A stretch of DNA of 64,000 nt, taken from NCBI RefSeq assembly GCF_006345805.1, contig NC_043020.1, positions 10,602,001-10,666,000 on the forward strand, given 5' to 3'. A program made the position numbers and the translations under genes. Shown one piece after another: positions 18,786 to 63,850 of this stretch. Origin of the DNA: Octopus sinensis (lineage: Eukaryota). The notes under the pieces are model-generated. The model worked only from the letters and a program-made list of their open reading frames with translations, had not been told where the DNA came from and ran no database searches. Positions within the stretch are counted from its first letter, which is position 1; every line of letters begins with the position of its first letter.

Positions 18786-20778
18786 ATGAAAAAACAAGTC
18801 AAAAATAGAAAATGCTAAAATAATTTTATAGTGAATCTTTCAGTACCGGTTTCGGTCATTTTGAGACCTTTTCAACTGTAACGATTAAATAATTAAATTT
18901 AGAAAAATTAGAAGAAAAGTTTTTTTAAAGGAATATTTCTATAGTAGTGTTCAGATATGTGGCATTCTGCCTTTCTCTGACTCCCTTGTTTGCACTTGTG
19001 TGTTGGAGGTCGTTGTGAGTTCTTGGTAGGGTAGGAGAAGAAGAAGGCTGAGGAGGAGAGGGGGTGGGGAAATCTGGGAGTGCCCTGATGGTCGTATTTT
19101 GAATGGTCAGTGGCGGCCAGCAGTCGCAGTTCAATTCAGGAAAATATTTCTATTGACTGGCTTGTTTATGGAATTTGCGTAGGCGTTATACTAAAAAACA
19201 TTAGTGACAAGGTTAAGGGGTAGAAGGTGGAGAAGTAGAAGAAGAAGATGACGATGTTGATGATGATGATGATGAAGAAGGAGAAGATGATGATGATGAT
19301 GATGGTGGTGATGATGATAATGATGATGATGAAGAAGAAGAGGAAGAAGAAGAAAAAACAGAGAAGGGAGAATATGAATGGGTGAAAGTATAGCTGTGAT
19401 GGGGCTGATTAGTAATGGATTCTATGGAATGTAATATTTGTGTGTGTATATATTTCTTTTATTCTAAAGTTGAGGTATATTAATTGTTTGTCGTAGACCC
19501 GTTAAGAAGTGGCCTGTATTTTGTAATAAAGAGATTTTCTTTACTTATTCGTTGTCTCGAGGTTGTATCGTCCCTAAATTGGTAGAGGGGGAAAATCCTG
19601 AAGTTTGGTGTTTTTTTGTTGGCGCAAGTACCTATGTGTTGGCTAAAAGCTATTTTTCTGTTTTGGGGAATTTTTATCTGGGATCTGTGCAGGGCCATTC
19701 GTTTACGCAAACCATTTTTTGTTTGGCCTATGTACTGCTCTTGACACCCGGAGCAGGTTAGTGAGTATATTAGGTTCTCCGAAGCACATGTGAAGTTGCT
19801 TTTCACTGTAAACCGTTGTCCCTGGTTGAAGGAGAACTCTGATCCCTCAATTAGATAGTCGCATATCCCGCAATTGGGTCTCCCACAATTTTTTACTGTC
19901 GGCTTCTGTGTTGAAGAGTGAATTCGGGCTTGTGTTAGGAGACTTTTCATGGATCTAGGCTGTCTCTTGCTTTTTATGATCGTGTGTGTTTGGAGGATTG
20001 TGTTCATTCTGTGGTCTTTTTTTAGGAGGGGTATGTTGTGGAGGATGGTGCCGAAGGCTTCGTTATTGAGAGGGTTGTGTGTGGAGATGTATGGTAAGGC
20101 TTTTGGTTGTAAGTTTTTCTTTGATTTGGGATGTCTCAGTTCCTTGATGTTAAGTTGAAGGGCACGTTGAATGCACTTGTCAATAAGTGAAGGTGGATAG
20201 TTCCTGGTGATAAGGGTATCATCATCTTCTCCTTCTCCTTCTTCTTCTTCTTCATCATCATCATCATCATCAACATCGTCATCTTCTTCTTCTACTTCTC
20301 CACCTTCTACCCCTTAACCTTGTCACTAATGTTTTTTAGTATAACGCCTACGCAAATTCCATAAACAAGCCAGTCAATAGAAATATTTTCCTGAATTGAA
20401 CTGCGACTGCTGGCCGCCACTGACCATTCAAAATACGACCATCAGGGCACTCCCAGATTTCCCCACCCCCTCTCCTCCTCAGCCTTCTTCTTCTCCTACC
20501 CTACCAAGAACTCACAACGACCTCCAACACACAAGTGCAAACAAGGGAGTCAGAGAAAGGCAGAATGCCACTTATATCTGAACACTACTATAGAAATATT
20601 CCTTTAAAAAAACTTTTCTTCTAATTTTTCTAAATTTAATTATTTAATCGTTACAGTTGAAAAGGTCTCAAAATGACCGAAACCGGTACTGAAAGATTCA
20701 CTATAAAATTATTTTAGCATTTTCTATTTTTGACTTGTTTTTTCATATATATCAACTCGTGTGTTCCTTTCCACCCTT

Positions 20779-34079: not shown

Positions 34080-35510
34080 GTAAGTTAACCCAAGGTTTCT
34101 GTTACTCTTTTAATTGTTTCAGTCAATTGACTGCGGCCCATGCTGCAGCACCGCTTTTAGTCGAGCAAATCGACCCCGGGACTTATTCTTTGTAAGCCTA
34201 GTACTTATTCTATCAGTTCTCTTTTGCCGAACCGCTAAGTTACGGGGACATAAACGCACCAGCATCGGTTGTCAAGTAATGTTGGGGGGACAAACACAGA
34301 CACGCAAACACACACACACTCACATATATATATATATATACGACAGGCTTCTTTCAGTTTCCGTCTACCAAATCCACTCACAAGGCATTGGTCAGCCCGG
34401 GGCTATAGCAGAAGACACTTGCCCAAGATGCCACGCAGCGGGACTGAACCTGGAACTATGTGGTTGGTTAGCAAGCTACTTACCACACAGCCACTCCTGC
34501 GCCTATATAGTTAAAAAAAAGTATATAAAGTTGGAAAAAGCAAAAAAGTATATTTTAGAGAATGTTAAATAAGATATAGCTGGTTTCAATGTATCCATCT
34601 TATCAAAAATTAGAAAAAATTGAGTCAAACAAAAATCATTTTTTTTGGTTAGTATAACAGTTTGTACCCATATTTGAGTTCTTAATGAAATTTTGCTTTA
34701 GTCATTCTCTTATAAATGTTTTGTAGGGCCGTAGCCAGGCTGAGGCAGAGGGGGTAGTTGCCTCCTTTGATTTTCCTTAACTGATGATGAAAGTGTTATT
34801 TTGATTTTATCAAGTTGACAATAAATAATAATGACTTTAGATAGTAAATTTAGTTTTAGGCTAATGTAATGAATAACGTCTCGCAGTGGTAATTAAAGCA
34901 TGTAAAAGTAATTACTTATTAAATGTTCTCTCACACTTCCTGTCTCCAAGTATGTGGGCTATTTTTAGACTTGCCTGGGTATTTCTACCATTGCTTGGTG
35001 GAGCTATTTTTGAATGCCTGTGAGATCACACTCCTCACAGTAGGGTGAGGAAGAGAGGTTTTGGATTGGTAATTGGTAAATTTACTGCAACATGTGGGAG
35101 CTACCTTTGTTCCCATTGCAGTTCCTGAAAATTGAAGGTATGCTGAACCATTGAATGTAAATTATGTTTTGGAGGATGAATTTTAGCCTGTCAGTGATGA
35201 GGTCTTTTTCAATGCATGTCAGTAGTTCAGATTGGTGTGTGTCTAGCCAATATTTGATTGCAGTTATTCTGCAGTCATGGGGTGTATTAATGTATAGGTT
35301 AACATCAAAGGTAAAAACGTTGTGTATTATTTTGTTTGCACACTCAAGAAAATTTATGAAAGAAGAAAAAATTATTACCCCTTAATACAGAACCCTACAC
35401 TAGTGTCCAACTCCATTATATAAGTGAATCTTTCTCACAGTTATTAAAATGCAGCTGCCCCAGACACATATGTTGACTGTATTCGTAAGTGATGTCATTT
35501 TAATATCTAG

Positions 35511-59143: not shown

Positions 59144-59325
59144 CAGTGGTAGAAAGTTCATCAAAGAGTTACAAAAGAGCTGGTTCATTAAATATGATGA
59201 ACAACCAGATGTCCAGGATAAATCCAAGCTGACGAGTTGTGTTGGGTCCAACCATTTGAAGAGCAGGCGCACACCAGCGGATTCCAGTTTGTTGCAAGAG
59301 ACATCCACATGTTGAAGATAGCAAG
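59144..59325 (-). CDS. TONSL: TONSL-like exon (CYLQHVDVSCNKLESAGVRLLFKWLDPTQLVSLDLSWTSGCSSYLMNQLFCNSLMNFLPL)
   Basis: tttccAG/GTaagc. Two ribonuclease-inhibitor-like LRR units. Phases 1 to 0. Confidence 0.82.
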
Positions 59326-62300
59326 CTGGAAATGGGAGAAAGAGAGAGAAAGATTAAAAGAGAATATATTATATAAAATAGGTGGCGAGCTGGCAGAGTG
59401 GTTAGCACGCCGGGCGAAATGCGTAGCCATATTTCGTCTGCCGTTACGTTCTGAGTTCAAATTCCGCCGAGGTCGACTTTGCCTTTCATCCTTTCGGGGT
59501 CGATAAATTAAGTACCAGTTACGCACTGGGGTTGATGTAATCGACTTAATACCTATGTCTGTCCTTGTTTGTCTCCTCTGTGTGTAGCCCCCTGTGGGTA
59601 GTAAAGAAATAGGTATTTCATCTGCTGCTACGTTCTGAGTTCAAATTCCGCCAAGGTCGACTTTGCCTTTCATCCTTCCAGGGTCGATAAATTAAGTACC
59701 AGTTACGCACTGGGGTCGATGTAATCGAAATAATCCCTTTGTCTGTCCTTGTTTGTCCTCTCTGTGTTTAGCCCCTTGTGGGTAGTAAAGAAATATATAT
59801 TATATAAAATATTGGTGCTGGAGTGACTATTGGTGCAGGCATGGCTGTGTGGTAATAAGTTTGCTTTACAACCACATGGTCCTGGGTTTAACAGATTTGT
59901 ATGTACGTAGAGAGTAGAAAAGGTGTTTTCATCAGCTGACATTATGTAATAGGTATGTACTATGAGTTTGATTTACCACTAAAGCTCTGTCTTGAAATGC
60001 ATCTGCAAAAATGTGATGCCAAGACTGCCTATTGAAGGCGGCAATAACTTTATTACCATTATTATTATTTTTGTCCCTTTTTTGTTATAATTAATTTTTG
60101 TCAGCCCTTGTGGCCAATAAAAGAATTAATTATTATTATTATTATTATTAGTATTACTATTATTGAGTGAGAGAGCAGTACATGTCATCAAAGTGACACT
60201 GGGTTAAAATATACGAAGCCCAGTATACCCATCATGACTACCTGTCTTATAAGGGTGCACCAGGCACATTCATCACAACCATGTGTGCAACATAGTAAAC
60301 TCATATCAAGACAAACAGCGCATGACCTTGCAGGTGGGGCCCAGTTAGGATTTTTTTCAGGTCAAGTAGCCCATCCCACTCAAATGGTCCTTGAATAAGG
60401 GTTGTTTAAATATGTTGAATGAAACACCCATGTTTCCAGAGGTGAATTATTTAAACTCCAAAGAATTCCTCTCAACACATGGCTATGATGCTCCCCCACT
60501 ACTTCGGCTCCTGATCAGAGACGCACATATTTAATTCTTTATTGCCCACAAGGGGTTACACATAGAGGGGACAAACAAGGACAGATAAACAGATTAAGTT
60601 GATTACATCGACCCCGTGCGTAACTGGTACTTATTTAATCGACCCCAAAAGGATGAAAGGTAAAGTTAGCCTCAGCGGAATTTGAACTCAGAACATAGCG
60701 GCAGACGAAATACCTATTTCTTTATTACCCACAAGGGGCTAAACATAGAGTGGACAAACATGGACAGACTAAGGGATTAAGTCGATTACATCGACCCCAG
60801 TGCGTAACTGGTACTTAATTTATTGACTCTGAAAGGATGAAAGGCAAAGTCGACCTCAGTGGAATTTGAACTCAGAACGTAACAGCAGACGAAATACCGT
60901 TAAGCATTTTGCCAGGCGTGCTTAATATTCTGCTAGCTTGCTCCCTTTGGAAGTTTATGTATGTATGCATCTTTACATTTGCAATTTAATATATTAATTA
61001 AAATATGAGCTGCACATAAAGGACATGCTCAACTGGTTACGGTCAAACAACTGACAAGCAAATCTGTGGTACTGAGTCATCGGCCGACCAAAGCCATGTC
61101 AGTGGATTTGATTGTTGGAAACAGAAAGGAGTCTATCCTATATCTATGTATTTACGTGTGAGTATTTGTGCTTGTGTTTGGTCCCCCTCCCCCATCACTT
61201 AAAAACTGATGTTGGTGTGTTTACGTCCCTGTAACTAAGTGGTTTGGCAGAAGATATTGATAGAATAAGCACCTGGCTTACAAAGAATAAGTCCAGGGGG
61301 CGATTTCTTGAACTAAAAGGCAGTACTGCAACATGGCCACACTAAAATAACTGAAACAAGTAACAGAGTAAAAGAGTAATATATATATATATATATATAC
61401 ATATACATGTGTATATATATATATGGGTGTGTGCGTGTATACATATATATGAGTGTAAATATATATAGATACACATATATGTGTGTGTGTGTGTGTGTGT
61501 GTGAAGAAATAATTGAGATTCAGTTGAATTAGGTACTTAAGTTGAAGTACTAAGTCAACCCAGTATTATCTGCACAGCTTGAAGTAAGGTGAATAAAATC
61601 AAAATAAGCAACAGGATATCAAGTAGTAACGCAGTACGACCTTTTCAAGCAACTCCATTTAATTGAACAATGCAATCACTACATCAATTTAAGTGCAGTG
61701 CTATCATCAGCTGCACAAATAAATAGAATTTTAACCAGTTGAACACATTAATATAATTTTTCCCACTTACAAGAATGGCATGAAACCCACTGGGGTCATA
61801 GTCTGTAAAGGATTGAGGTACATTTTTAATTTATTTGTCTTTTTATCAACTACTAAATCTAAGACTAGAAGAATGTGTCTGTTTAGAATGAAGGGCAAGG
61901 GTGAGTTGACAGCTCCTGGCTAGGTATGGTCATAAATATTGTCATATGTATCCCTTTTCCTCAGGGAGGGAAGAAGACATTAGGAGTAGTAAATTGGATA
62001 TGGAGTAAATGTCTATAAAAGGAGGCTGGGTAGGGGAAGGCTCTAAATCATAATGTTAATTACCAGTTAAAGGGGCAAGACACTAATAAAACCTATGATG
62101 TTAATACAGAGGAAATTTTATCTTGGGGTACTACGGGTGATTGTTTATAAACAATATTGTTATCATAAGGGGGATCAGCCATCTGAATGTGGCTAGGGTC
62201 AGGGCGGGGTGGTGGGGGTGTTACTGATGCATTTAGCCCCAGGCGAACATCAACGTCACCAGAAGAGCTGACACCATCTCGGTGTCCTTGCCAGCCTGCA

Positions 62301-62335
62301 AAGGGAGATCAGCCTCCCCGAAGATACGGATACCA

Positions 62336-62378
62336 CATACAGACCGGTTTCGAGGTTATTGCCTCTTGTCAACGTATG
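62336..62378 (-). ncRNA. Minimal type I hammerhead ribozyme motif, second tandem copy
   Basis: Same as the 62694 copy, except the 3' strand of stem I is UGUAUG (G-U wobble). Confidence 0.78.
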
Positions 62379-62693
62379 GTAAGCACCGCTCTTCGTTGAG
62401 GGACTTCCTCTACAGGCTGGATGTATAGATTTTCACAGTAACCACAGTCACTGGCGTAGAAAATCCGTTCGAAAACAATAATAAATCTCTGAGCGAGATA
62501 TGAACAGTAACTGCTCTATAACATAAGGGGGATCAGCCATCTGAATGTGGCTAGGGTCAGGGCAGGGTGGAGGGCGTGTTACTGATGCATTTAGCCCCAG
62601 GCGAACATCAACGTCACCAGAAGAGCTGACACCATCTCGGTGTCCTTGCCAGCCTGCAAAGGGAGATCAGCCTCCCCGAAGATACGGATACTA

Positions 62694-62736
62694 CATACGG
62701 ACCGGTTTCGAGGTTATTGCCTCTTGTCAACGTATG
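62694..62736 (-). ncRNA. Minimal type I hammerhead ribozyme motif, U3:A8 variant
   Basis: CAUACG-UUGACAA-GAGG(caauaa)CCUC-GAAA-CCGG-UC-CGUAUG. Perfect 6-bp stem I, 4-bp stem II and palindromic stem III. Confidence 0.8.
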
Positions 62737-63384
62737 GTAAGCACCGCTCTTCATGTTGTATAAAAATAAAATTTGAGATGATCAAAAATGATATCATAAC
62801 CAAAATAGGTAAAATGTATGTATATATTAATTATCAACATTCAGTGCCGGTGACAAGTAAGCGAACCATCCGATCATGGCCGTTGCCAGCGCCGCCCCGA
62901 CTAGCCTGCATGCCGGTGGCACGTAAAAAGCACCATCCGTTCGTGGCCATTGCCAGCCTTGCCTGGCCCCCGTGCCGGTGGCACGTAAAAAGCACCATCC
63001 GTCCGTGGCTGTTTGCCAGCTCCGTCTGGCACCTGTGCGGGTGGCACGTAAAAAGTACCCACTACACTCATGGAGTGGTTGGCGTTAGGAAGGGCATCCA
63101 GCTGTAGAAACACTGCCAGATCAGACTGGAGCCTGGTGCAGCCTTCTGGCTTCCCAGGTCCCCGGTCGAACCGTCCAACCCATGCTAGCATGGAAAGCGG
63201 ACGCTAAATGATGATGATGATGATTCGAAAGGAAATATTACATAGAACCAGTTTAATATTCATTCATGTCCCTTAATTATTTATCAGGTGGTTTCTATAA
63301 AGACTGCTCAGGTCATTTACTTATGGAATACTGGAAAGATAAACATGCTATATATATATTAATTATAAGCCAAGAATCAGAAAA

Positions 63385-63850
63385 ATAAAGATGTGTACAG
63401 ACACACACACATATTTATCTATGTGTGCACAGGCCAAAATATTTACACATTTATATGGATATAATATAACCATCTTGTATAGACTTAAGTAACTGAAAAG
63501 TATCTACTTATGAACAAGAAAAATAACAATTTATAAGAGATAAAAGGTTAATAGGTTATGCACATATATGCATATATACACATATACAAATATTTACACA
63601 TTTATATGGATATAATATAACCATCTCGTATAGACTTAAGTAACTGAAAAGTATCTATTTACGAATAAGAAAAATAACAATTTAGAAAGGATAAAAGGTT
63701 AATAGGTTATGCACATATATGCATATAAACACATACAAATATTTATCCATTTATATGGACATAGTATAACCATCTCGCATAGACCTAAGTAGCTGAAAAA
63801 TCTCTATTTATGATCAGTAACAATTTATAAGGGATAAGAGGTTAATAGGT
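63385..63850. repeat. ~140-bp tandem repeat x3
   Basis: aaatatttacacatttatatggatataatataaccatct...aaaggttaatagg is repeated. Confidence 0.9.

What the first reader, a model, noticed from the sequence alone, without database searches (positions are those of the whole stretch)
62164..62752. Tandem 358-nt repeat with two non-canonical (U3:A8) hammerheads, sense to a probable TONSL intron: candidate dimeric ribozyme or retrozyme-like unit
Seen: a full 358-bp unit (62164-62521) plus a partial copy (62522-62752). Each reads on - as CAUACG UUGACAA GAGG-loop-CCUC GAAA CCGG UC YGUAUG, and no long ORF is present. Known: PLE-associated minimal hammerheads have a palindromic stem III and cleave as tandem dimers, C3-G8 is a core pair that U3-A8 preserves, and non-LTR retrozymes are tandem non-coding units with one hammerhead each. 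Inference: a - strand transcript could cleave after 62700 and 62342 and release a 358-nt monomer that may circularise. The TONSL-like pre-mRNA probably reads through here because its next upstream exon is not evident in the window.
Basis: partly seen in the sequence, partly recalled or inferred. Interest (0 to 1): 0.85.

Follow-up and report, generated by a model that had tools for sequence, protein, structure and literature searches.

The report
Octopus retrozyme with Penelope-type insertion ends
This is one of several hundred scattered copies of a 358-base non-coding repeat whose two hammerhead motifs are predicted to cut the RNA as a pair; its insertion ends match those of Penelope-like jumping genes, which likely copy it, and its place in a TONSL intron is probably incidental.

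Summary
Observation confirmed: 1.65 tandem units (62164-62752, minus strand) with two intact type I hammerhead motifs 358 nt apart, sense in a 5.8-kb TONSL intron (octopus, by protein match). It is one insertion of a dispersed family (at least 646 exact hammerhead matches in two patterns; controls 0) with no attached ORF in 148 loci: a non-LTR retrozyme. Helices covary across subfamilies, the stem III palindrome changes sequence yet stays self-complementary, and the unconstrained best fold of the two-hammerhead RNA equals the dimer. Insertions end at two fixed sites about 43 nt apart, in TA tracts; head-to-head insertions pair one end of each kind in 63 of 64 cases, as intact Neptune-like Penelope elements here do (2 of 2). 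Copies cross the cut site seamlessly (181 of 182), fitting a circular or uncut template. The 3:8 core pair takes four states among subfamilies. Cleavage, circles and expression are untested; no homologous autonomous partner was found. The hammerhead is canonical in architecture, not minimal. The scan noted look-alikes in other genomes, not this family. Verdict: new member of a known kind, with unusually clear insertion footprints.

The parts
62164..62752 (-). Whole insertion: one 358-nt unit plus 231 nt of the next (589 bp)
   Evidence: boundaries from empty-site comparison
62677..62752 (-). Hammerhead 1 domain: extended helix I, core UUGACAA (62730-62724), helix II (62723-62710), GAAA, palindrome ACCGGU (62706-62701), C17 at 62700
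62319..62394 (-). Hammerhead 2 domain, C17 at 62342; two changes (G-U wobble next to the cut site, one in the helix I extension) keep pairing
62342..62699 (-). Predicted 358-nt monomer released by double cleavage; circular fold z = -3.9 (antisense -0.6)
   Evidence: prediction
62474..62516 (-). 'Tail' between family end sites A (unit position about 231-236) and B (about 275-281), internal copy; inferred reverse-transcription start sites
   Evidence: tail motif 502 exact matches, control 0
62164..62170 (-). 3' end of this insertion, at site A; at most a 2-bp (AT) target duplication (62162-62163 and 62753-62754)
61930..62163 (.). Older dispersed repeat that received the insertion (continues at 62753-62841)
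   Evidence: 7 of 9 fetched copies join both flanks without the insert over 60-90 nt, 1 over 21 nt, 1 not
59144..59325 (-). TONSL-like exon (aa 867-927) downstream of the host intron 59326-65090 (donor beyond the window)

Best explanation
The repeat is one insertion of a dispersed, non-coding, hammerhead-bearing tandem element (a non-LTR retrozyme) that is likely copied into the genome by the proteins of Neptune-like Penelope elements from a probably circular RNA. Shown: family, tandem phase, fixed end sites, TA-rich targets, paired A/B ends, covarying hammerhead. Inferred steps: (1) a transcript with two hammerheads (here the TONSL pre-mRNA could supply one) folds them into a dimer through the palindromic stem III and cuts after 62700 and 62342; (2) the 358-nt monomer is ligated into a circle; (3) a dimeric PLE protein binds the tail region, cuts AT-rich DNA and primes reverse transcription at site A on one DNA end and at site B on the other; (4) copying runs round the circle and stops at random, giving partial tandems, or head-to-head arms when both products are kept.
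For: Family: 300 + 346 exact hammerhead matches, controls 0. No ORF: 6 of 148 loci have a PLE protein remnant nearby, none contiguous in sense. Structure: 96.9% of cells paired, 6 of 18 pairs with double changes, slid controls 23-52%; 4 of 5 stem III variants self-complementary; unconstrained MFE = dimer fold, -149.9 vs -127.8 kcal/mol for two monomer folds; circular fold z -3.1 to -4.3 in 4 of 4 subfamily units, each stronger than its antisense. PLE footprint: 133 of 198 A/B ends have a TA run within 20 nt vs 87 of 1770 background sites; A+B in 37 of 37 head-to-head pairs picked without regard to the tail (p = 7e-12) and 26 of 27 tail-picked; intact PLEs here have two end sites about 35 nt apart and A+B arms in 2 of 2 visible cases. 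One template: copies within a locus mismatch at 2.8% of diagnostic sites vs 13.1% between loci; locus-private alleles are shared across both arms in 6 loci, in all 3 copies in 2 of them. Continuous template: 181 of 182 crossings of the cut site have no indel; 5' ends are not piled there (2 seen, 2.7 expected). Literature: PMC11167929 (two internal RT start sites define the tail; predicted dimer), PMC8557442 (tail often at one end only), PMC7229834 (circles from tandem type I hammerheads).
Against: No RNA-level evidence of expression, cleavage or circles was obtained. No autonomous PLE shares sequence with the unit beyond the hammerhead core among 70 PLE loci examined. A subfamily with a C3-A8 mismatch has spread (at least 3 loci) and a U3-G8 subfamily is the largest, so fast cleavage may not be needed; PMC11167929 found hammerhead mutants did not affect PLE insertion in vitro, and the 2026 preprint saw no cleavage for 8 of 9 Xenopus dimers. 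Only 9 of 155 locus-private alleles at multiply covered sites are shared, so most differences are later mutations and the one-template signal rests on few loci. Seamless crossing also fits uncut multimers. Covariation counts come from related sequences and are few independent events.
Confidence: 0.7

Rival explanations
1. Non-autonomous PLE parasite copied from uncut tandem transcripts of a few master arrays; the hammerhead is slow, protein-dependent or dispensable and no circle is needed.
For: Seamless crossing of the cut site; mobile C3-A8 and U3-G8 subfamilies; PMC11167929 (uncut RNA was the main substrate in vitro); ladder-like subfamily tree.
Against: Longest arm is 3.3 units in 148 loci and no long array shows in the listed matches (only the first 100 places listed); no 5' flank shared among 49 single-arm loci; no clear unit-position-specific differences shared between loci (201 distinct of 240); catalytic residues invariant in 23 rows across subfamilies about 72% alike.
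Confidence: 0.2
2. Detached terminal repeats (pLTRs) of an ORF-bearing Penelope-like element that was not found or is extinct.
For: Same end signature and same hammerhead type as intact PLEs in this genome; a 2026 preprint derives vertebrate retrozymes from pLTRs; only 70 PLE loci were checked out of tens of thousands of candidates.
Against: Upstream of the hammerhead, copies continue into the previous unit, not into an ORF or a PLE 3' UTR; the unit has evolved as a unit through many subfamilies. An origin from a pLTR is not excluded, only present membership.
Confidence: 0.07
3. A co-opted ribozyme switch that cuts TONSL pre-mRNA to tune its level.
For: Sense orientation in a confirmed intron with two intact cores.
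Against: One of hundreds of copies, young (5 differences in 231 nt between its two copies), inserted in an older repeat; 29 of 148 sampled loci have two intact tandem cores; about 42-44% of Xenopus retrozymes are intronic (2026 preprint).
Confidence: 0.03

Closest known systems
Animal non-LTR retrozymes (Cervera and de la Pena 2020, PMC7229834; Li, Clavereau and Pollet 2026 preprint 10.64898/2026.07.22.740005), e.g. mussel 350-390-nt and axolotl 330/350-nt units
   Same: Non-coding tandem unit of 354-360 nt, one type I hammerhead per unit, 1-bp helix III with palindromic tetraloop as in axolotl HHR_Amex1, strongly folding predicted circle, co-existence with PLEs.
   Different: U3:A8 core in the window's subfamily; short arrays (at most 3.3 units seen); PLE-type tail ends and head-to-head arms, which the parts of those papers I read do not describe; no sequence homology found to an autonomous pLTR; circles not shown here.
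Penelope-like elements, Neptune-type (RT + CX2-5CxxC linker + GIY-YIG), and their pLTR hammerheads (PMC4209133, PMC8557442, PMC11167929)
   Same: Two fixed 3' end sites separated by a tail, partial tandems, inverted 5'-truncated arms, (TA)n targets, palindromic stem III, U3-A8 core (reported in Schistosoma PLE motifs).
   Different: No ORF; tail about 43 nt rather than 30-40; hammerhead has canonical helix sizes rather than the minimal form.
Non-autonomous Chlamys PLE derivatives such as MRC1 (PMC8557442, passage)
   Same: Non-coding, multicopy head-to-tail insertions made by PLE machinery.
   Different: Those share 3' sequence with their autonomous partners and mostly lack canonical hammerheads.

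Membership tests
Non-LTR retrozyme | Tandem non-coding unit of about 150-450 nt | tested here: met
   358-nt period; 354-360 nt in four subfamily references; longest ATG frame 70 codons
Non-LTR retrozyme | One type I hammerhead per unit with conserved core and paired helices | tested here: met
   core has U3:A8 in place of C3:G8; no Rfam hit
Non-LTR retrozyme | Dispersed multicopy family without LTR or ORF | tested here: met
   PBS and PPT were not searched for
Non-LTR retrozyme | Predicted highly self-paired circular monomer | tested here: met
   64% paired, z = -3.9, 0 of 100 shuffles as stable
Non-LTR retrozyme | Self-cleavage of the transcript | not testable with these tools
   needs in vitro transcription
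Non-LTR retrozyme | Circular monomer RNA in tissue | not testable with these tools
   only assembled contigs of runs not on record as RNA were available
Non-LTR retrozyme | Target-site duplications, when present, longer than 4 bp | tested here: inconclusive
   this locus at most 2 bp; 40 of 48 single-arm loci none, 5 with 7-12 nt matches, 1 clear 195-nt duplication, 2 microsatellite-rich matches
Autonomous PLE / pLTR | Contiguous with an RT + GIY-YIG ORF | tested here: not met
   0 of 148 loci
PLE-mobilised element | Fixed 3' ends with a tail at one end, 5' truncation, inverted arm, AT-rich target | tested here: met
PLE-mobilised element | Sequence shared with the 3' end of an autonomous partner | tested here: not met
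   70 PLE loci; only separate insertions of the unit and one 24-nt core match; sampling incomplete
Minimal PLE hammerhead (min-HHR, PMC4209133) | Long helix II (7-8 bp), short helix I (4-5 bp), extra base between 9 and 10.1 | tested here: not met
   helix I 6 bp plus extension, helix II 4 bp, no extra base

The most novel reading that the evidence does not exclude
These insertions are a fossil record of rolling-circle target-primed reverse transcription: one dimeric Neptune-type protein grips one circular RNA and copies it from two sites 43 nt apart, one per DNA end, which explains the near-absolute A+B rule and ties animal retrozymes to PLE enzymes by mechanism rather than homology. The same lineage has walked its catalytic 3:8 pair from C-G to U-G to U-A and back to C-G (with a mobile C-A branch) while staying mobile, a natural allelic series for how much ribozyme activity a retrozyme needs.
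Probability: 0.4. Interest if true: 0.6.

Novelty: new member of a known kind. Interest (0 to 1): 0.38.

Why it matters
Animal retrozymes have been proposed to borrow Penelope-like enzymes, on co-occurrence and pLTR homology. Here the insertion junctions themselves carry the PLE signature, and a 358-nt RNA with mapped end sites is a small substrate for testing PLE transposition and circular templates in vitro. The four natural core states allow a direct test of whether cleavage is needed for mobility. The TONSL locus itself is probably unremarkable.

Tried and rejected
Rfam: no hammerhead family matched the window or six other loci, including C3:G8 copies. Sequencing runs: no RNA holder listed; contigs of four runs laid on 61500-63400 could not show strand, ends, level or a circle; no conclusion drawn. 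Autonomous partner: searches with a full PLE protein (60 scored of 32294 candidates, 50 loci or 3' ends fetched) and with a second GIY-YIG family (20 loci) gave no homologue of the unit; the hit in L127 is a separate opposite-strand insertion, and the copy in L189 sits in the TA tract after a complete PLE end. Pile-up of 5' ends at the cut site, expected if cut linear monomers were templates: absent. 5' flank transduction from parent arrays: none among 49 single-arm loci, a weak test. Within-locus versus nearest-other-locus distance did not discriminate (0.017 vs 0.015). A short motif shared between the tails of the unit and of autonomous PLEs was seen by eye, but spacing differs; not counted. 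No cleavage data for a U3-A8 core were found in print; I recall that such swaps keep reduced activity, but this is recalled only. The supplement of PMC7229834 could not be read and may list cephalopod retrozymes; the preprint's supplements were not seen.

Full report
Observation. Unit positions (q) below count from 62752 on the minus strand; C17 is q53 (62700, and 62342 in the next unit). An exon in the window is 100% identical to a protein labelled tonsoku-like, Octopus sinensis. Mapping that protein on the window and the next 60 kb puts the repeat in an intron from window-equivalent 65090 to 59326, on the same strand as the hammerheads.

A dispersed family. A search of the own genome scored 40 of 2000 candidates and gave 68 matches at 85-100%. 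Exact patterns give lower bounds: 193 hammerheads with U3:A8, 84 with C3:G8 and 300 with any Y3/R8 on the same scaffold, so 23 are off-diagonal; a further 346 have an 8-nt stem III palindrome, mostly with U3-G8 among the 100 listed; all controls were 0. I analysed 148 loci holding the unit after leaving out 24 overlapping loci, 9 empty-site loci and 6 neighbouring stretches. These loci were picked by best match, hammerhead pattern or tail pattern, so array lengths are biased upward: 86 of 148 have an arm longer than one unit, 13 reach two units, the longest is 1186 nt. Six loci have a PLE protein remnant nearby, and none is contiguous with the unit in sense. The window's copy lies in an older repeat; its empty copies show a clean insertion with at most a 2-bp duplication.

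The hammerhead. In 23 rows chosen to span subfamilies, all core residues except 3, 7 and 8 are invariant. With 18 named pairs, 96.9% of cells pair, 6 pairs show double changes, and 0 of 500 shuffles reach the covariation score; slid controls pair 23-52%. The rows are related, so these are few independent events. Stem III occurs as ACCGGU, ACUAUAGU, ACUGCAGU and ACUCGGGU, all self-complementary (-7 to -11 kcal/mol); a fifth, single-row variant is not. For the transcript spanning both hammerheads, the free minimum-energy fold has the same energy as the constrained dimer (-149.9), 22 kcal/mol below two monomer folds. The released monomer folds as a circle with z = -3.9 against -0.6 for the antisense; three other subfamily units give -3.1 to -4.3 against -0.2 to -2.9 (25 shuffles each). 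By the definitions in PMC4209133 this is the canonical metazoan type I architecture, not the minimal form. Rfam does not detect it. Activity is predicted only.

The core pair. On a tree of 46 monomers (42 of 95 well-covered loci plus 4 distant ones), with the core columns masked and rooted on the distant C3:G8-type family, the order is U3-G8, then U3:A8, with a nested, strongly supported clade (100/99) of C3:G8 and C3-A8 copies; 5 changes of state. The order inside that clade is unresolved and the root hangs on a long branch. U3:A8 is also the core of all 27 hammerheads detected in 50 intact-ORF PLE loci, so it is common in this genome.

Insertion footprints. Arms end 3' at two sites, A (q227-238) and B (q274-285), and are truncated at variable 5' points. 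Of 198 such ends, 133 have a TA run within 20 nt, against 87 of 1770 background sites. There are 85 head-to-head pairs; 21 have one end outside both windows and were set aside. Of the other 64, 63 have one A end and one B end (37 of 37 among loci not picked by the tail). Intact PLE ORFs are plentiful (60 scored, most without stops; RT above and GIY-YIG just below the Pfam cut-off) and carry a CX2-5CxxC linker, which PMC8557442 gives as a mark of Neptune and Nematis; I infer Neptune-like without a tree. They too have two end sites, TA targets and, in the 2 loci where both arms are visible, one end of each kind. PMC8557442 notes a 30-40-bp tail often at one end only, and PMC11167929 shows that such a tail lies between two internal RT start sites of a predicted dimer. 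The pattern is therefore known qualitatively for PLEs; what is added here is its strictness and its presence on a non-coding hammerhead repeat.

Template. Both arms and all rounds of a locus belong to one subfamily (2.8% vs 13.1% mismatch at 92 diagnostic sites). Nine of 155 locus-private alleles are shared between copies, six of them across opposed arms. Copies cross the cut site without indels in 181 of 182 cases, and 5' ends do not pile up there. This argues against cut linear monomers as the usual template. It fits a ligated circle, and also uncut multimers; the lack of long arrays, of shared 5' flanks and of unit-specific inherited differences tilts towards the circle, weakly.

Against my reading. 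No RNA evidence was obtained. No homologous autonomous partner was found in 70 PLE loci. Mismatch-core subfamilies have spread. In the 2026 preprint 8 of 9 Xenopus dimers did not cleave, and in PMC11167929 the hammerhead needed protein and was not needed for insertion.

Literature seen. 10.64898/2026.07.22.740005: parts 1-3 of 5, abstract to discussion. PMC4209133: parts 1-2 of 4. PMC7229834: parts 2-4 of 6, supplement unreadable. PMC11167929: parts 1-2 of 4. PMC8557442: passages. PMC7151607: one passage. Searches for an octopus retrozyme or hammerhead and for retrozyme junction signatures showed no description in the listings; the library lacks most subscription papers. The scan's own index had no look-alike by sequence and six related notes from other genomes by words.

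Verdict. Real, well-built and probably functional as RNA, but a new member of the non-LTR retrozymes rather than a new kind. Interest 0.38, earned by the family-level footprints and the natural core series, not by the TONSL locus.

Noticed in passing
L101-L130, L251-L270 (e.g. G000:C17:8934217-8936475): Many intact Neptune-like PLE ORFs of about 780 aa in at least four families, some in full tandems about 4.4 kb apart, apparently with an upstream ORF; their 3' UTRs carry U3:A8 hammerheads with palindromic stem III.
   Followed up: partly
G000 genome-wide: 1472 matches (control 56) to a hammerhead core with ACCGGU stem III, in many unrelated scaffolds; the commonest has an A/U-rich helix II and matches a PLE end.
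   Followed up: partly
L150, L155, L171, L177, L190, L209, L211: Distant subfamilies (about 70-75% alike) have C3:G8 cores but a C-A mismatch in place of the usual G10.1-C11.1 pair.
   Followed up: partly
L085-L088: Further hammerhead repeat families; L087 and L088 show faint similarity to the unit's tail region and may be very old relatives.
   Followed up: no
L218:920-1500: A copy flanked by a 195-nt direct duplication of the target.
   Followed up: partly
L231-L250: A very abundant second GIY-YIG PLE family (14260 candidates) with no hammerhead detected within about 1.5 kb downstream in 20 of 20 loci.
   Followed up: no
window 19528-20217 and 35154-35303: Decayed PLE protein fragments elsewhere in the window's TONSL introns or flank.
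   Followed up: no
L031-L036: TONSL residues 665-730 and 1-157 were not mapped at over 80% identity in the 60 kb beyond the window; short exons, a filter effect or an assembly gap.
   Followed up: no
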